Positions 25,957 to 30,953 of a stretch of DNA of 64,000 bases are shown one piece after another (the first letter of the stretch is position 1; every line of letters begins with the position of its first letter). Location: the IMG/VR virus record IMGVR_UViG_3300034060_000856, positions 1-64,000 of that record; one strand, written 5' to 3'. The notes below the pieces were generated by a model that worked only from the letters and a program-made list of their open reading frames with translations, was not told where the DNA came from and ran no database searches. The stretch comes from a virus. Both the position numbers and the translations under genes were made by a program.

Positions 25957-26000
25957 ATTAGTATAATAGGTAAAAACATTACAACATACTCACTCATTAC

Positions 26001-26029
26001 AAAGGGAGACCTCACACGGTCTCCTTTTT
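26001..26029 (+). terminator. intrinsic terminator
   Basis: aaagggagacc/ggtctccttt. Confidence 0.8.
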
Positions 26030-26585
26030 CATTCATTCATATCTTGTATTATTTTCCCCCATCTATTACATAAGCCCCCATCTTTTAATTAGTTCCCCCC
26101 ATTTAGTATGACCAATAAGGTACACAAATATAATAACACATAGAGTATAATGGTGAGGTGTTCTAAATTATATTCATAAACATATAATTGATTATAAATG
26201 AGATGAATTATATGAAAGAACATATAGTATTATATTTTGGTGTCGTAGTGAGAGGGATAATTAGTTGTATCACCATAGTAAGGTTTCACCTTATAACAAA
26301 GATACAAAATATATCCCATTTTTTACCACTTTAATTTCCTTTACTATGTGTTTATTTTTGTGTAGATTTAAAGGGTCAATTGTTTAAGGATCCCATAAAT
26401 GGGTCGTTGAAGATGTCTTTTTAATGATCTATAAGTGATCTACAAACAACATAAATGTCTATCTCCGGCCTCTGTACTCTAACGTACCTTTTTTACTGGG
26501 AAATAGGTATAGTAAAAAAAGTGGTCTTCTAGATATCAAAAACAAGGATAAATCGGTGTTCTATATATCAGGGGGACACATTATG

Positions 26586-26636
26586 GTGGGAGAAAGTGGT
26601 AAGTATATACACAATAAAAGTGGGAGAAAGTGGGGA
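26586..26636 (+). repeat. GTGG boxes in 10-bp phase (gtgggagaaagtgg x2)
   Basis: GTGG at 26586/26596 and 26620/26630; inverted pair near 26315-26332. Confidence 0.65.
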
Positions 26637-26723
26637 AGGGGATTGTGTGGTGTTTAACTCGTGACTGACATTTTGACAAAAACAAATAATTTAGTAGATA
26701 TTTATTAATAAAAACCCCATCTT

Positions 26724-27011
26724 ATGACATCAATAATGGACATCTTTATGGTAAACACAACAGAAAATGACGGTACCGTAACCGTGACATATTGTCACAA
26801 CTTGTACTCCGGGTCTTGTACATACAAATTAGTAACCCTTCAAGGAAAAAAATTAAGACAGGAGATTGAGTTATTAAGAAGTGTAGATATGGATGACATA
26901 CTGGAATGTCTATATAAAGAGGGGGAAATAACCGGACCAGATTGTTATGAGAGAATAAGGGGAGAAATTATAAATCATTCCCTCCACCAGGTTCAATCCC
27001 GGAATAAGTGA
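26724..27011 (+). CDS. hypothetical protein
   Basis: TATTTAT upstream; ATG ORF. Confidence 0.55.
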   Translation: MTSIMDIFMVNTTENDGTVTVTYCHNLYSGSCTYKLVTLQGKKLRQEIELLRSVDMDDILECLYKEGEITGPDCYERIRGEIINHSLHQVQSRNK

Positions 27012-27123
27012 TCTATTAAAGATCCGGCCAGAATAACTGTAAGTAATAACCATATCATTGTGAACATAAAAAAAGATAGGGGAAATATATAACTTTTTCA
27101 ATAGTGACGTATATTTATTATAA

Positions 27124-27269
27124 GAGTTCATTTTCCCCACAGTGTCGTAGACCGACACGTTAGTGAAGTAGGGAATTAGTTGTTCAAAGTCCTGGCGACT
27201 TGCAAAGATCAAGATGAATCTGAAACAACCTAATTTCTAATCCCCCTCAAATGGGTGGGGAATTTTTTT
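27124..27269 (+). ncRNA. putative structured ~145-nt RNA
   Basis: TATTTAT at 27112, no ORF; stems ttccccac/gtggggaa, gtgtcg/cgacac, tagggaattagttgttca/tgaaacaacctaatttcta, aagtc/gactt; ends in a T run. Confidence 0.65.
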
Positions 27270-27389
27270 ATGTCTTATATTTTTATAAGATGTTATGGAG
27301 TGTTCTAACCGACCACGCACGTGGGAGTCCACCCTCTGCGATCCCCAATACCTAGACCGAACCCGTCGTCGTTACTAACATAGACAATA

Positions 27390-27421
27390 CAAAGATACAA
27401 ATAATAATTGACATTAACAAA
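27390..27421 (-). promoter_or_regulatory. Bacteroidota promoter driving a GC-rich non-coding tract
   Basis: minus strand TTTG-N20-TATCTTTG. Confidence 0.7.
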
Positions 27422-27456
27422 GAATATGGTATTTATTTAATATAAAATACATTACT

Positions 27457-27909
27457 ATGGGATCCAGACTAGAAAACATTTCAGACGAACAACTAAAGAA
27501 GTATATGAAGTATGTATATAAAGTAATTGGGGCTTTTGAATTTGATGGTCCTGATCAATTATATTACTACGATAATATAACTACAATCTTCTCCCCCTTT
27601 GGTGGTAACATTAAAAGGTTGGATATTGAATACCTTTATTATGTGTTAAAGAACAACCCATTCTATTTTAAGGAGGGTTACCCAATTAATAGACCTACAC
27701 TTGTTGATCACGATTTACTTTATACAGTCAGGGAGTCACAGGTGGTTGAGATATATTATAACGGGGAGATTGAAACGTACATACCAGATGATCTGGAAGA
27801 AGAGTACCTCACCAAACTAACTGATGATCTGATTATTAACCCACGAACCTGGAACATAGACAGTGAGATTACTGATTCGGAATGGTTAAGTGATGATTGG
27901 GACTTTTAA
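27457..27909 (+). CDS. acidic protein, paralogue of 33696..34169
   Basis: S(R/K)LEN.SD..L.KY, RLDIEY..YVLK, W. Confidence 0.8.
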   Translation: MGSRLENISDEQLKKYMKYVYKVIGAFEFDGPDQLYYYDNITTIFSPFGGNIKRLDIEYLYYVLKNNPFYFKEGYPINRPTLVDHDLLYTVRESQVVEIYYNGEIETYIPDDLEEEYLTKLTDDLIINPRTWNIDSEITDSEWLSDDWDF

Positions 27910-27913
27910 TTAA

Positions 27914-28080
27914 GCCCTACCCTATATGACCCCTATGACCGGGGGGCGTATGATATAACCTGGGGGCCCCCTCCCGTATCCCCCCCATATATGACATTTT
28001 GACAGGTAGATAGGGGGCTCAATCCCAAAAGCGAAATATTCGTAAAAAAATTTCTGGAAAAAATTTTGGGAAAATCCGGT
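27914..28080. other. GC homopolymer/palindrome island (candidate origin or packaging site)
   Basis: G6, gggggccccc, C7, then A/T tracts, in an AT-rich genome. Confidence 0.4.
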
Positions 28081-28124
28081 TTATGTTTCCCCCAATTATT
28101 ATAACGTGGGTATATTTATCTTAT

Positions 28125-28532
28125 ATGAAAAGAATTGTAAGACTTACTGAATCTGATTTAACTAGAGTAATTAAAAAAATTATCTCTGAATCAGAGAAAG
28201 CCCCATCAATACAAAAGGTCTATAATAAAATATATAAAGTTTTAGAAAATATGGGGTTGTCTAAATTTAATGATGACTTTGATATATATTATATCCAAGA
28301 TGATATTCGGACGGAATATCCTGGTCCTGCAAGAAACTACGGTAAGTATGTAGGAAAATACCTATTTAAGGTGGCCTTTTATTTAGAAGATGGTGAAGAT
28401 GATATTAATATAAAAATGATTTCAAAAAAAGTTATCGATGAATTAAATAATGAGTTTGGTAATGAGTTCTTTGAATTGGGAAATTTATATAAAGAACATT
28501 TTTTAATAAAGTTCAATAAGTTGGCACTATAA
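28125..28532 (+). CDS. leader-bearing protein (MKRIVRLTESDL)
   Basis: leader plus TATTTAT. Confidence 0.8.
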   Translation: MKRIVRLTESDLTRVIKKIISESEKAPSIQKVYNKIYKVLENMGLSKFNDDFDIYYIQDDIRTEYPGPARNYGKYVGKYLFKVAFYLEDGEDDINIKMISKKVIDELNNEFGNEFFELGNLYKEHFLIKFNKLAL

Positions 28533-28549
28533 AATATTTTCCACAAAAC

Positions 28550-28571
28550 ACTCCACTAACGTGTCGGTCTA
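28550..28571. repeat. 22-bp inverted repeat of 27148-27169
   Basis: actccactaacgtgtcggtcta is the reverse complement of tagaccgacacgttagtgaagt at 21/22 positions. Confidence 0.9.
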
Positions 28572-28619
28572 GAAACACGACCCCCATTTTAAAATGATCC
28601 CAAATATCAAAAAAAAATT

Positions 28620-28651
28620 TTTGGAAAATTTCTAGGAAATTCCTATCTTTG
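28620..28651 (+). promoter_or_regulatory. Bacteroidota promoter
   Basis: TTTG-N20-TATCTTTG. Confidence 0.8.
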
Positions 28652-28657
28652 TACCCT

Positions 28658-29275
28658 ATGGAAAAAAAGACTTGTACAAAATGTGGTGAAGACAAACCAT
28701 TAACAGAATTTTATAGTGGTAGGACAAAGTGTAAATTTTGTTATAGCGAACAGAAAAAAGAATACAGAGAGAAAAATAAAGACGACATAAATGAAAAGAA
28801 TAAAACATATTATTATGAGAACCATAATAGGATGTTAGAAAAAAAGAAGAAGTATAGGGAAAATAATACCGAAACCATTAAATCCTATAATACGGAATAT
28901 TTTAAAACGTATGAAAAAAAGAGAAGTGAGAAAGATATTTTATACCGTATTGGGCGATCTTTACATAATTCAGTAAGAGGTTGTTTAAGACAGAAAAAAT
29001 TCCTTAAAAATTCTAGGACATATGAAATACTGGGTTGTACGTATGAAGAATTTAAAACCCATATTGAATTAAAATTTGAACCCTGGATGAGTTGGGATAA
29101 TTATGGGTTATATAACGGAAAGGAATGTTATGGTTGGGACTATGATCATATTATACCCAAATCTTCGGCAAAGTCGGAAGATGAACTAATTAAGTTATTT
29201 CATTATTCAAATCTCCAACCTTTATGTTCTTACGCAAATAGAGTTATTAAAAGAGACTCATTAGATTGGGAATAA
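28658..29275 (+). CDS. HNH endonuclease with N-terminal Zn finger
   Basis: CTKC..CKFC; W.NYG...DHIIP...HYSNLQPL...N. Confidence 0.88.
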   Translation: MEKKTCTKCGEDKPLTEFYSGRTKCKFCYSEQKKEYREKNKDDINEKNKTYYYENHNRMLEKKKKYRENNTETIKSYNTEYFKTYEKKRSEKDILYRIGRSLHNSVRGCLRQKKFLKNSRTYEILGCTYEEFKTHIELKFEPWMSWDNYGLYNGKECYGWDYDHIIPKSSAKSEDELIKLFHYSNLQPLCSYANRVIKRDSLDWE

Positions 29276-29310
29276 AACCAAAACACCCATTTTAAAAATT
29301 CTGAAAAAAT

Positions 29311-29341
29311 TTTGGTAATTTCAAGATTAATTATATCTTTG
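29311..29341 (+). promoter_or_regulatory. Bacteroidota promoter
   Basis: TTTG-N19-TATCTTTG. Confidence 0.8.
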
Positions 29342-29366
29342 TAATTCAAACAAAAATTTGTAATAT

Positions 29367-30425
29367 ATGAAAAAAGGAAAAAACCATAGTCCAAAAAGTT
29401 CGTATGCTTGGAAAGAGGATAAGACGATTAAAAAAGATTGTTGTTATGAATGTGGTTCAACTGAAGATATACAGTATCATCATATCATACCAGAAAGTAA
29501 AGGTGGGGGAATGACAATACCTTTATGTATTATATGTCACGGTAAAGTACACGATGTTGATTTTGTAAAAATGAAAAAATTACAAAAAGAAGGTATTGAG
29601 AGAGCAAAACAAAATGGGGTTTATAGTGAAACAATAGAAGAGTTTTTATCAAAACCAAGTCATTCTGAAGCTGTAAGATTAATAGATACTTGGCGTTTTG
29701 ATATTGATCAAATTTGTCAAATGGTAAATTTATCCAAAAGTACCGTTAAAAAAATATATAAAATTATGGATGATAATGATTTACGTACAAACAAACAAAG
29801 ATATTATCCATATGTTGAAGAAGTACTTGAAACGGAATATTCTATATTTTTTGACTGGGATGACCATAAAGAATTTGAAGAACGTTATAAAAACCAACAT
29901 AAATTTTGGTCAAATGATACATATATTGATAATGTAGTTGAATACCATATATGGTTAGAAGATTTATTACATTACTTTTATAAGAATTTGGTAGATATTG
30001 AGTCTGGTCTTATATTTGTTTTAGAGAATACTAACCCAAAAGATGAACATTTTAAATGTTTTGACGATTATCTTTCATATGTTTTAAATAAAACACTTAT
30101 AGAATATTATTATCTTTTAAAATCAAATCATAAAAACTACGCTTGGCGATTGTTTTGGGAACGTACTATAGACCTAGAGAACTTCCTTGGTCACTTCCCA
30201 AAAGATGATATGGAAGAAGCTGAAAAATATTTGCTTAAGTACCTTAATAAGAAATTTAAAGAAGAATATCTAATTGCTAAAGTTCATATAATACCACATT
30301 ATGACGATGATATAAGAAAAATATATGATAGTGGAACTTCAGGTAATACAATTAAACGTATAAGACCTGACACCTATAAGGATTACAACACCAAAAAGGA
30401 TGTGGATTGTGATGAACTTTGGTGA
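29367..30425 (+). CDS. HNH endonuclease + resolvase-type helix/HTH + unknown C-terminus
   Basis: CYECG..HHIIP..KGG...PLCIICHGKVH; KEGIERAK..G; LSKSTV.K. Confidence 0.82.
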   Translation: MKKGKNHSPKSSYAWKEDKTIKKDCCYECGSTEDIQYHHIIPESKGGGMTIPLCIICHGKVHDVDFVKMKKLQKEGIERAKQNGVYSETIEEFLSKPSHSEAVRLIDTWRFDIDQICQMVNLSKSTVKKIYKIMDDNDLRTNKQRYYPYVEEVLETEYSIFFDWDDHKEFEERYKNQHKFWSNDTYIDNVVEYHIWLEDLLHYFYKNLVDIESGLIFVLENTNPKDEHFKCFDDYLSYVLNKTLIEYYYLLKSNHKNYAWRLFWERTIDLENFLGHFPKDDMEEAEKYLLKYLNKKFKEEYLIAKVHIIPHYDDDIRKIYDSGTSGNTIKRIRPDTYKDYNTKKDVDCDELW

Positions 30426-30452
30426 AATAAAACCCAAATATCAAAAAACCCT

Positions 30453-30953
30453 ATGGAAAAAAAGACTTGTGTTAGTTGCAATGAAAATAAAATTCAAACT
30501 GAATTTAGAAATAGAAATACTTGTAAGACCTGTGAGAATAAACATAGGTATGAAAGAAAGAAGTTGCAAAGGATGGATCCCCTATATGATAAGAAGTGTA
30601 AGGAGTACGATGTTAAAAGAAAAAGAAAAAAGGAACATGAATGTCCCCTTACCAATTTTAAACAGATAATTAGACAAGCCGTTAGAAAATCATTTAAAAG
30701 AAATGGGTATACCAAAAAATCAAAAACGCATTTAATACTTGGGGATGACTGGGGTGTTGTTAAATTACATTTTGAATCTTTATTTCAACCGGGTATGTCC
30801 TGGGACAATTATGGGTTATGGGAAATTGATCACATAAAACCATTATCCCTTGCCAGTACCGAAGATGAGGTTATCAAGTTATGTGAATATAAAAACCTGC
30901 AACCCCTCTGGAAGGAAGATAATAATAAAAAGGGAACCTTTTATATTTTATAA
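30453..30953 (+). CDS. HNH endonuclease, paralogue of 28658
   Basis: MSWDNYG.WEIDHIKP...NLQPLW..DN..K. Confidence 0.88.
   Translation: MEKKTCVSCNENKIQTEFRNRNTCKTCENKHRYERKKLQRMDPLYDKKCKEYDVKRKRKKEHECPLTNFKQIIRQAVRKSFKRNGYTKKSKTHLILGDDWGVVKLHFESLFQPGMSWDNYGLWEIDHIKPLSLASTEDEVIKLCEYKNLQPLWKEDNNKKGTFYIL

What the first reader, a model, noticed from the sequence alone, without database searches (positions are those of the whole stretch)
27112..27269. Structured ~145-nt RNA with its own promoter and terminator
Seen: TATTTAT at 27112 is followed by no ORF. Instead there is a nested fold: closing stem ttccccac/gtggggaa, hairpin gtgtcg/cgacac, a long bulged stem tagggaattagttgttca/tgaaacaacctaatttcta enclosing an aagtc/gactt hairpin, then T7. 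The 3' gtggggaa can alternatively pair with tcccc (27241) as a terminator, which would allow a switch. It does not look like a tRNA, or like any ribozyme or riboswitch that I recognise.
Basis: partly seen in the sequence, partly recalled or inferred. Interest (0 to 1): 0.72.

Follow-up and report, generated by a model that had tools for sequence, protein, structure and literature searches.

The report
Conserved small RNA of lake jumbo-phages
This stretch, about 120-145 bases with no protein-coding frame and its own start and stop signals, is kept almost unchanged in at least 27 related uncultured lake phages, and two of its hairpins are preserved by matching mutations, so it is very likely a real, undescribed phage small RNA whose job is still unknown.

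Summary
The described features are all present. The fold alone is not better than chance (z -1.8). Comparative evidence is what makes the case. I found 27 distinct homologues, one per contig, in lake viral and metagenome contigs, some 275-290 kb long. None was found in Rfam, cultured phages or bacterial reference genomes.

- **Boundaries:** Conservation starts at a sigma-70-like promoter (TTGACT, 16-17 nt, TATTTAT). TATTTAT sits 7-49 nt before 50 of this phage's + strand genes. In the nearest relative the RNA is about 98% identical while the flanks are about 70%.
- **Structure:** The apical hairpin (four stem versions, loop CNGGY) and the terminator hairpin show compensatory changes. The long stem shows only wobble-compatible changes. 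The 5'/3' closing stem is thermodynamically favoured but shows no covariation.
- **Correction:** It is a 26-nt optional cassette, missing in contigs from three other lake samples that match this phage exactly apart from the gap, and in 24 of 27 homologues. It sits elsewhere in one homologue and in a neighbouring hairpin element. An inverted copy lies ahead of a homing-endonuclease gene.
- **Switch:** A termination switch is unlikely, because both pairings use the same 3' strand next to the U-tract.

No RNA-seq data exist. The scan has not noted this family on other DNA. Best reading: a new phage small-RNA family of unknown function.

The parts
27089..27094 (+). -35-like position of the promoter. 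It reads ATAACT here (weak) and TTGACT in 8 homologues. It lies 16-17 nt before TATTTAT.
   Evidence: Alignment of the upstream regions of the homologues. Sequence similarity between homologues begins here.
27111..27119 (+). Promoter -10-like motif A-TATTTAT-T, this phage's general gene-start motif.
   Evidence: In the 98.7-kb record, 73 of 119 TATTTAT lie in the 13.7% of sequence that is intergenic. Of 81 on the + strand, 50 lie within 120 nt upstream of a + strand ATG ORF start, 49 of them 7-49 nt upstream. The consensus has A at -1 and A/T at +8. The motif is invariant in all homologues that have upstream sequence.
27125..27269 (+). Predicted transcript: about 145 nt here, about 119 nt without the cassette. 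The 5' end is inferred from the promoter spacing and the 3' end from the terminator.
   Evidence: Covariance model R1 matches window 27122-27271 at 130.9 bits and one site in each related contig at 97-148 bits. There is no experimental mapping of the ends.
27127..27140 (+). Nearly invariant 5' segment TTCATTTTCCCCAC. Its C-run is the 5' strand of closing stem P1. Its first 8 bases, with the preceding base, can instead pair with AAGATGAAT (27211-27219).
   Evidence: Invariant or nearly so in 27 sequences, although no search pattern behind 24 of them required it. P1 mean pair probability is 0.84. The alternative 9-bp helix comes from RNAalifold; the CA-to-TG variant keeps pairing through wobble.
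27142..27167 (+). Optional 26-nt hairpin cassette (stem GTGTCG/CGACAC, loop TAGAC, plus tail), flanked by the 3-nt repeat AGT.
   Evidence: Left out in long contigs of runs X4, X5 and X11 that are otherwise identical. Absent in 24 of 27 homologues. Present at the same site in L030, inside the terminator loop in L065, and in the neighbouring hairpin element of L026, L052, L028, L029 and L048.
27171..27238 (+). Long bulged stem P2 (27171-27184 with 27224-27238), which encloses P3 and a conserved internal region.
   Evidence: 92% of cells paired. All changes are one-sided and wobble-compatible (G-U to G-C). The bulged base varies between C, U and A. The search pattern fixed the 5' strand, so double changes could not be seen. 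The G-U pairs would be C-A on the other strand, which argues for a + strand RNA.
27187..27201 (+). Apical hairpin P3: stem AAGTC/GACTT, loop CTGGC.
   Evidence: Three of 4 counted pairs changed on both sides in 11-12 of 27 sequences. Four stem versions occur with the loop kept as CNGGY, and 99% of cells are paired.
27204..27221 (+). Conserved internal stretch AAAGATCAAGATGAATCT. It may form a small helix or be the partner of the 5' tail.
   Evidence: Ten of its bases were fixed by the search pattern, so its conservation is only partly informative.
27241..27269 (+). Intrinsic terminator: an 8-bp hairpin with one bulged base, loop AAAT, then T7.
   Evidence: Found by the terminator scan. Folds at -11.6 kcal/mol. 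Three pairs have double compensatory changes and the loop varies freely; 97% of cells are paired. It has the same build as other terminators of this genome.
27272..27291 (+). A second, AT-rich hairpin directly after the U-tract (CTTATA/TATAAG). Present in most homologues and absent in some.
   Evidence: The stem varies with matching changes (GTCTTATA, GCTTATAA, GCTTTAT) and the loop varies, in the alignments.
27331..27394 (+). Conserved G+C-rich DNA element that follows the RNA gene in nearly all homologues and precedes the next promoter (TTGACA 27408-27413, TATTTAT 27430-27436).
   Evidence: Conserved in sequence with no consensus RNA fold (-4 kcal/mol, no covariation). Depth is about 10-fold higher in lake metagenomes, so many other phages share it.
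28550..28571 (+). Inverted copy (21 of 22 bases) of the 3' arm and tail of the cassette. It lies between ORF 28083-28532 and the endonuclease VII-like homing endonuclease gene 28649-29275.
   Evidence: The copy is conserved in the related phage G001/G002 and in L051. Predicted hybrid gain with the RNA is -20.3 kcal/mol, against a mean of -5.5 (sd 2.4, best -12.9) for 210 control windows.
26228..26330 (+). Neighbouring long hairpin element ('paralog-1') that shares GTGTCGTAG...GGGATAATTAGTTGT with the candidate.
   Evidence: Fold z = -4.33. Local alignment with the candidate region scores 72, against 44.6 +/- 7 for shuffles. It is conserved in L026 with two compensatory pairs, and there it carries the full cassette. 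Model R1 does not detect it.

Best explanation
The stretch is a single-copy gene for a small non-coding RNA. The family is shared by uncultured freshwater jumbo phages.

Transcription would start about 7 nt after a sigma-70-like promoter (a -35 TTGACT-like element, 16-17 nt, then TATTTAT). It would stop at an intrinsic terminator at 27241-27269.

The conserved core, about 120 nt, has four parts:
- an invariant 5' tail ending in a C-run;
- a 14-bp bulged stem with a small apical hairpin whose stem sequence is free but whose loop is CNGGY;
- a conserved internal stretch;
- the terminator.

After release, the 5' C-run probably displaces the terminator's own 5' strand and pairs with its G-run, tying the two ends of the RNA together.

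The most likely role is a trans-acting regulatory or protein-binding RNA made from a host-type promoter. It would act through the invariant unpaired stretches (the 5' tail, the internal stretch, the CNGGY loop).

The 26-nt hairpin seen in this record is an accessory cassette. It is present in only 3 of 27 variants. Here it adds 21 of 22 bases of antisense complementarity to the leader of a homing-endonuclease gene.

Shown: conservation, single copy, the promoter-motif statistics, covariation in two helices, the strain-level indel.
Inferred: the transcript itself, its ends, the end-to-end pairing, and any function.
For: - **Promoter:** TATTTAT is this phage's gene-start motif. Of 119 copies, 73 are intergenic, and 49 of the 81 on the + strand lie 7-49 nt before an ATG ORF. 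The copy at 27112 has the consensus A at -1 and no ORF behind it.
- **Homologues:** 27 distinct homologues were found, one per contig, with CM scores of 97-148 bits and nothing else below E = 1e-4.
- **Boundary:** Similarity between homologues begins at the -35 position, and the upstream genes differ between groups.
- **Conservation:** Against L026 the flanks are about 70% identical. The RNA outside the cassette and the apical hairpin differs at only 2 positions.
- **Covariation:** Seven pairs changed on both sides, in 54 cells. 94% of cells are paired, against 36-60% when the partners are slid. None of 500 shuffles reach the covariation score.
- **Strand:** G-U pairs in the long stem and the terminator fit only the + strand RNA.
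- **Non-coding:** Indels of 1, 2, 6 and 26 nt, and no conserved frame.
- **Recombination:** The variants are recombinant mosaics of hairpin type, internal variant and terminator type, so the helices are maintained independently.
- **Closing stem:** P1 has a mean pair probability of 0.84 across the 27 variants.
Against: - No RNA data exist. No sequencing run that holds this DNA is recorded as RNA, so the transcript, its ends and its timing are unproven.
- The fold energy of the single sequence is not significant.
- Exact patterns taken from the RNA itself found the homologues. The sample is therefore narrow (effective sequence number 1.29), and 26 of its bases could not vary in 24 of the 27 sequences.
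- The long stem and the closing stem have no double compensatory change.
- RNAalifold prefers a different partner for the 5' tail.
- Conservation runs on past the terminator into a second hairpin and a G+C-rich DNA element, so the 3' border is not marked by a drop in conservation.
- No complementary target for the invariant stretches exists in the 98.7 kb held, which is about a third of the genome.
Confidence: 0.62

Rival explanations
1. It is a cis-acting transcription unit tied to the non-coding island and the G/C-homopolymer island next to it. It could be a leader or attenuator, a transcriptional insulator, or an origin- or terminus-associated transcript such as a primer or R-loop precursor or its regulator. 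The RNA would have no trans function.
For: - In nearly all homologues the gene is followed by the same G+C-rich DNA element, a TTGACA...TATTTAT promoter and then G/C homopolymer tracts. The 150-aa ORF found here is an insertion missing in L026 and L028.
- The contigs of the related phage (G001 and G002, from two samples) both end at the same base about 1 kb before the homologue of 28035, which fits a physical genome end or a repeat nearby.
- The whole island 25957-27456 is better conserved than the coding flanks.
Against: - The unit has its own promoter and a strong terminator with covariation.
- What lies downstream has its own promoter, and the gene there differs between homologues, so there is no constant gene to attenuate.
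- The two alternative pairings share the 3' strand, so they cannot act as terminator and antiterminator (inference).
- Nothing here shows an origin or a packaging site.
Confidence: 0.15
2. It is a DNA-level module rather than a functional RNA: a promoter-plus-terminator recombination cassette (PeSL-like) left behind after an ORF was lost, or a set of protein-binding inverted repeats.
For: - This genome does use terminator-hairpin-then-TATTTAT junctions between genes, as described for PeSLs of T4-like phages (PMC4122927, PMC2839356).
- The variants are recombinant mosaics.
- The cassette moves between sites and orientations.
- The - strand of the single sequence folds at least as well.
Against: - It is single-copy, not a dispersed repeat.
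- The order is promoter, then a 115-nt conserved interior, then a terminator. That is the reverse of a PeSL.
- The interior is far better conserved than neighbouring genes.
- Compensatory changes and strand-specific G-U pairs point to an RNA.
- No remnant of an ORF is detectable.
Confidence: 0.12
3. Its main job is antisense control of the homing-endonuclease gene at 28649-29275. The cassette hairpin would kiss the complementary hairpin in the endonuclease leader and form a 22-bp duplex that changes processing or translation.
For: - Complementarity is 21 of 22 bases, including the two hairpin loops.
- The predicted hybrid gain is -20.3 kcal/mol, about 6 sd beyond 210 control windows.
- The target copy is conserved in three phage lineages.
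Against: - The cassette is missing from the RNA in contigs of three other lake samples that match this phage exactly apart from the gap. At least one of those runs (X5) also has an identical contig over the target site.
- The cassette is missing in 24 of 27 homologues.
- Where present, it sits at different places, and no inverted partner is seen on those short contigs.
- The match may simply reflect common descent through inverted duplication or gene conversion.
Confidence: 0.06

Closest known systems
Phage-encoded trans-acting small RNAs with their own promoter and Rho-independent terminator, as catalogued by transcriptome maps of cultured phages (e.g. PMC8244752, PMC10914365)
   Same: A short non-coding unit between genes, with a host-type promoter, stem-loops, an intrinsic terminator with a U-tail, and conservation among relatives.
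   Different: There is no sequence or Rfam relationship to any of them. This family is known only from uncultured lake phages. No expression data and no target are known.
tRNA-Leu-scaffold 'carrier' RNAs of the same genome (record positions about 64669-66270) and the stable RNAs of phages T4 and T5
   Same: Small stable-looking phage RNAs of 100-150 nt with paired ends and a variable, swappable inner hairpin.
   Different: The scaffold RNAs keep a canonical T arm (GGTTCGAATCC) and acceptor stem. The candidate has neither. ARAGORN finds nothing, and it lies 37 kb from that array.
PeSL composite terminator/promoter motifs of T4-like phages (PMC4122927, PMC2839356)
   Same: A sigma-70-like promoter and a stem-loop terminator sit together in a hyperplastic, ORFan-rich region. 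They are associated with indels and mosaic recombination.
   Different: PeSLs are about 50-bp dispersed repeats in the order stem-loop then promoter, and they flank variable ORFs. This unit is single-copy, runs promoter to terminator, and has a conserved structured interior of about 115 nt.
RNA anti-CRISPRs (Racrs, solitary CRISPR-repeat units in phages; PMC10651486)
   Same: The 26-31-nt cassette has the build of a palindromic CRISPR repeat: a short hairpin plus a 9-11-nt tail. It is carried inside a small phage transcript.
   Different: The cassette pattern was not found in 185,579 reference genomes, so no host repeat is known that it would mimic. It also occurs in the inverted orientation.
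phi29 packaging RNA (pRNA)
   Same: A phage RNA of about 120-170 nt with a 5'/3' end helix. It lies near a possible genome end and has internal complementarity that could act between molecules (5' tail with the internal stretch).
   Different: No Rfam hit. pRNA belongs to small phi29-like phages with a terminal protein. Nothing here links this RNA to packaging.

Membership tests
Any Rfam 15 family | Covariance-model score at or above the family's gathering threshold | tested here: not met
   No match in the whole window at gathering thresholds. At E up to 10 on 26900-27500 there were only 6 sub-threshold chance matches; the best was NsiR1 at 17.3 bits against 39 needed, covering the terminator only.
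tRNA and tRNA-scaffold carrier RNAs | 7-bp acceptor stem plus a T arm with the GGTTCGAATCC-type loop | tested here: not met
   ARAGORN finds no tRNA or tmRNA in the window. The array members in L013 carry the T-arm motif. The candidate has only a 3-bp CCC/GGG option at that place.
Independent trans-acting small RNA gene | Own promoter | tested here: met
   The TATTTAT motif is strongly tied to gene starts in this genome. It is invariant in the homologues, and a TTGACT-like -35 lies 16-17 nt upstream. This is motif-level evidence only.
Independent trans-acting small RNA gene | Intrinsic terminator at the 3' end | tested here: met
   A hairpin plus T7, with compensatory changes in 3 pairs.
Independent trans-acting small RNA gene | No conserved reading frame | tested here: met
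   No ORF of 25 aa or more on the + strand. Homologues differ by indels of 1, 2, 6 and 26 nt, and the short ATG frame at 27213 changes length and frame between them.
Independent trans-acting small RNA gene | A discrete transcript is detected | not testable with these tools
   No run that holds this DNA is recorded as RNA.
Independent trans-acting small RNA gene | An identified target or protein partner | tested here: inconclusive
   No site with 13 or more of 16 complementary bases to the invariant stretches exists in the 98.7-kb record. Only the optional cassette has a partner. The host and two thirds of the phage genome are not available.
Riboswitch or transcription attenuator | Terminator and a mutually exclusive antiterminator, controlling a downstream gene in the same transcription unit | tested here: not met
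   The two alternative helices share the 3' strand next to the U-tract. The downstream gene differs or is absent among homologues, and a separate promoter precedes it.
PeSL (promoter-early stem-loop) | A dispersed repeat of about 50 bp, stem-loop followed by a sigma-70-like promoter, flanking variable ORFs | tested here: not met
   Single copy in the 98.7-kb record and in each related contig. The order is reversed, and the conserved interior is 115 nt.
RNA anti-CRISPR (solitary repeat unit) | Close similarity of the hairpin unit to a CRISPR repeat of a host | tested here: inconclusive
   An exact-pattern scan for the cassette in 185,579 reference genomes found nothing. The host is unknown and diverged repeats would be missed.

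The most novel reading that the evidence does not exclude
The RNA is a modular carrier. Its conserved frame accepts a movable 26-31-nt hairpin cassette at several sites: after the 5' C-run, inside the terminator loop, and in the neighbouring hairpin RNA.

The cassette would give the carrier a new specificity. One option is antisense, kissing-loop control of a selfish homing-endonuclease gene whose leader holds the inverted copy. The other is capture of a host or phage RNA-binding protein, as a decoy in the way of RNA anti-CRISPRs.

That would be a small RNA whose targeting part is exchanged by recombination between phage strains.
Probability: 0.12. Interest if true: 0.8.

Novelty: new member of a known kind. 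Interest (0 to 1): 0.58.

Why it matters
Few phage small RNAs are known, and almost none come from uncultured environmental phages. This one is a family with clear borders, 27 natural variants and helices preserved by matching mutations, found in jumbo phages from many lakes.

It gives a concrete RNA to look for in metatranscriptomes and to test in a cultured relative. Its invariant unpaired stretches are candidate contact sites.

The optional hairpin cassette differs between otherwise identical strains, sits at different places in the same RNA family, and has an inverted copy ahead of a homing-endonuclease gene. It is an unusual and testable case of a small structured module moving between transcripts.

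If the RNA proves to be only a local transcription unit of the non-coding island, it would still mark a conserved regulatory region, possibly near an origin or a genome end, in this phage group.

Tried and rejected
- **Known families:** Rfam at gathering and permissive thresholds gave nothing usable. ARAGORN found none.
- **Cultured phages:** megablast and blastn against INPHARED gave no match.
- **Neighbouring proteins as anchors:** the 95-aa and 150-aa ORFs have no Pfam or PHROG family and no confirmed relative in IMG/VR.
- **Related phage G001/G002:** no homologue of the RNA was found in its 72-kb and 128-kb contigs, which end just before the syntenic place.
- **Expression:** no RNA holder is listed among the sequencing runs.
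- **Bacterial and archaeal reference genomes:** the RNA pattern and the cassette pattern were both absent. This gives no host clue and no support for a CRISPR-repeat mimic.
- **Paralogues:** model R1 finds no second copy in the window, the tRNA-array locus, G001/G002 or the related loci. The neighbouring hairpin element is not detected. The weak hit L065 5936-6056 on the - strand (25.8 bits) lies over an ordinary terminator next to a gene start.
- **Targets:** no complement of the invariant stretches exists within the record.
- **RNAduplex:** it did not discriminate on these long AU-rich sequences, since controls reached -68. I used cofold differences instead.
- **Downstream G+C-rich element as a second RNA:** it has no consensus structure.
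- **Micro-ORF at 27213:** it encodes 8 aa here, and its length and frame are not conserved.
- **Earlier notes of the scan:** no look-alike stretch was found on other DNA.

Full report
**Setting**

The window is the first 64 kb of a 98.7-kb IMG/VR virus record that CheckV rates 34% complete, which implies a genome of roughly 290 kb. It has about 29% G+C and consists almost wholly of small + strand ORFs.

The finding lies in the only long gene-poor zone, 25957-27456, which holds a single 95-aa ORF and has raised G+C. Three HNH or endonuclease VII-like homing endonuclease genes follow at 28649-30953.

**Observation**

By energy alone this is unremarkable:
- z = -1.81 on the + strand and -2.53 on the - strand;
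- z = -1.4 for the long stem and -0.9 for the terminator on their own.

No ORF of 25 aa or more follows the TATTTAT on the + strand. There is no Rfam family at any threshold and no tRNA.

**The promoter claim**

TATTTAT is not a chance AT-rich word in this genome.
- Of 119 copies in the record, 73 lie in the 13.7% that is intergenic.
- Of the 81 on the + strand, 50 lie within 120 nt upstream of a + strand ATG ORF start. Forty-nine of them lie 7-49 nt upstream, with clusters at 11-14 and 18-28 nt.
- The extended consensus is A-TATTTAT-W with T-rich positions near -13 and -15.
- Several copies directly follow a terminator hairpin.

The copy at 27112 fits the consensus and is one of very few intergenic + strand copies with no ORF behind it. 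In the homologues, a TTGACT-like -35 element lies 16-17 nt upstream. The same layout, TTGACA-N16-TATTTAT, precedes the next gene at 27408-27436.

**Homologues**

Cultured-phage records hold nothing similar. Exact-pattern scans then found:
- the syntenic homologue L026;
- two more through the downstream element;
- 28 JGI metagenome contigs;
- four IMG/VR contigs through a pattern that fixes only the C-run and the terminator G-run, three of them 274-291 kb long.

After removing duplicates there are 27 distinct sequences, always one per contig. A covariance model built from 24 of them scores 97-148 bits on each and finds nothing else below E = 1e-4 in 546 kb of related DNA. The pattern is absent from 185,579 bacterial and archaeal reference genomes.

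**Conservation**

L026 is about 70% identical to the window in the flanking regions. From the TATTTAT to the U-tract it differs at only two positions outside the cassette and the apical hairpin.

Across the family, similarity begins at the -35 position. Upstream of that, the sequences fall into unrelated groups with different upstream genes. The unit is therefore conserved together with its promoter as a block.

Conservation also continues downstream into an AT-rich hairpin whose stem co-varies, and into a G+C-rich element.

**Structure**

On the 27-sequence alignment, 94% of cells pair, against 36-60% when partners are slid by 1-3 columns. Seven pairs show changes on both sides, in 54 cells, and none of 500 shuffles reach the covariation score.

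- **Apical hairpin P3.** It has four different 5-bp stems (AAGUC/GACUU; GUA-N-CC/GGUAC with a bulged base that varies; UCUCC/GGA-A; AGACC/GGUCU) and a kept CNGGY loop.
- **Terminator.** Three pairs changed on both sides, for example C-G to G-C and U-G to A-U, and the loop varies freely.
- **Long stem P2.** It is 92% paired and shows only wobble-compatible one-sided changes, plus a bulged base that varies between C, U and A. My search pattern fixed its 5' strand, so double changes could not be observed.
- **Strand.** G-U pairs that predominate in P2 and in the terminator would be C-A on the other strand. That argues for a + strand RNA rather than a DNA cruciform.
- **Closing stem P1.** It can form in every variant, but both strands are nearly invariant. 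Its A-U pair is broken without compensation in 6 of 24 sequences, so covariation neither supports nor refutes it. Thermodynamically it dominates, with mean pair probability 0.84 against 0.06 for the local terminator hairpin.
- **Alternative for the 5' tail.** RNAalifold instead pairs the 5' tail AUUCAUUUU with AAGAUGAAU over 9 bp, and the rare CA-to-UG variant keeps both pairs through wobble. This helix crosses P2, so it is either an alternative state or part of a strained pseudoknot. Single-sequence folding gives it about 1%. Which of these holds is open.

**The switch idea**

P1 and the terminator hairpin use the same G-rich 3' strand directly before the U-tract. Either helix would therefore be in the position that drives termination, and neither is an antiterminator. 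I read the pair as a local hairpin that forms during transcription, followed by a more stable end-to-end helix after release. This is inference.

**The hairpin that is not core**

Contigs from three lake metagenome runs of three studies cover the locus over 1229, 1117 and 461 nt. They show no other difference but lack 26 nt after 27141. The indel is flanked by the 3-nt repeat AGT and removes exactly the gtgtcg/cgacac hairpin and its tail.

Twenty-four of the 27 homologues lack it too. L030 has a variant at the same site, with the same stem and a different loop and tail. L065 has it inside the terminator loop.

The same cassette forms the 5' part of a neighbouring long hairpin element, 'paralog-1':
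- it lies at window 26228-26330 and folds with z = -4.3;
- it is conserved in L026 with two compensatory pairs;
- the cassette is partly deleted there in the window and complete in L026 and L052;
- it occurs in either orientation relative to the RNA gene in L028, L029 and L048.

The cassette's 3' arm and tail also occur inverted at 28550-28571, ahead of the endonuclease VII-like gene. That copy is conserved in the related phage G001/G002 and in L051.

The RNA with the cassette is predicted to gain 20 kcal/mol by hybridising to that leader, about 6 sd beyond controls. Antisense control of the endonuclease gene is therefore possible in this strain. It cannot be the family's main function, because most variants lack the cassette, and run X5, which lacks it, also has an identical contig over the target site.

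The cassette has the build of a palindromic CRISPR repeat, but no reference genome holds it. What moves it is unresolved; gene conversion between the three sites is the simplest idea.

**What it is not**

- It is not one of the tRNA-Leu-scaffold RNAs of this genome, which keep a canonical T arm.
- It is not a PeSL, because it is single-copy, in the reverse order, and has a conserved interior (PMC4122927).
- It is not a leader for a constant gene, because the downstream gene varies and has its own promoter.
- It does not code for a conserved peptide.

**Verdict**

This is a real, conserved, structured non-coding unit, most likely an independently transcribed small RNA of an undescribed family in freshwater jumbo phages (confidence about 0.6).

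Its function is unknown. I favour a trans-acting regulatory or protein-binding role through the invariant unpaired stretches. A cis role tied to the neighbouring non-coding and G/C island is the main rival.

The first hairpin, the length and the switch need correction. Earlier notes of this scan hold no look-alike on other DNA.

Noticed in passing
window 26228-26330: A long hairpin element ('paralog-1') with a T-run in its 3' strand. Its fold has z = -4.33. It is conserved in L026 with two compensatory pairs and carries the same movable hairpin cassette in relatives. It may be a second small RNA or a terminator-like element.
   Followed up: partly
window 26360-26560: Non-coding blocks that are nearly identical to L026 over about 200 nt, while neighbouring coding DNA is about 70% identical. 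No ORF, and the function is unknown.
   Followed up: no
window 26586-26650: The direct repeat GTGGGAGAAAGTGG occurs twice, 34 nt apart, followed by a conserved G-rich block (AAAGTGGGGAAGGGGATTGTGT) that contains the complement of the RNA's TTCCCCAC. Metagenome depth here is about 10-fold higher, so many other phages share it. It looks iteron-like.
   Followed up: no
window 27331-27394: A G+C-rich element, conserved in sequence, lies between the RNA gene and the next promoter. It is present after the RNA gene in nearly all homologues and occurs in two sequence types. It has no consensus RNA fold, and its depth in lake metagenomes is about 10-fold higher. It is probably a protein-binding DNA site.
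   Followed up: partly
whole record (window 1-64000 and beyond): A-TATTTAT-W is the general gene-start motif: 49 + strand copies lie 7-49 nt before ATG ORFs, many at exactly 12 nt. This implies very short or absent leaders. Some copies have TTGACA 16-17 nt upstream.
   Followed up: yes
L018 1-130 / L017 end (phage G001/G002): Two independent assemblies of the related phage, from two samples, end at the same base about 1 kb before the homologue of window 28035. This suggests a physical genome end or an assembly-breaking repeat near the G/C island.
   Followed up: no
window 27457-27909: The 150-aa ORFan is an indel. It is present in L029, L036, L032 and L046 and absent in L026 and L028, where the promoter runs straight into the G/C-homopolymer island.
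   Followed up: partly
window 26053-26110, 26708, 28086, 28580: The motif CCCCCAT(C/T)T recurs in the non-coding island and ahead of the endonuclease genes. With the phased A/T tracts at 28044-28072 and 28611-28639, it forms a repeated upstream region that is also present in G002.
   Followed up: no
window 28123-28166: A 40-nt stretch at the start of ORF 28083-28532 has very high metagenome depth, and contigs diverge on both sides of it. It is a DNA segment shared among many phage genes.
   Followed up: no
L043 1806-2025 and L065 4461-4600: In two homologues, an extra block of about 120 nt with G/C-rich hairpins is inserted between the RNA's terminator and the G+C-rich element.
   Followed up: no
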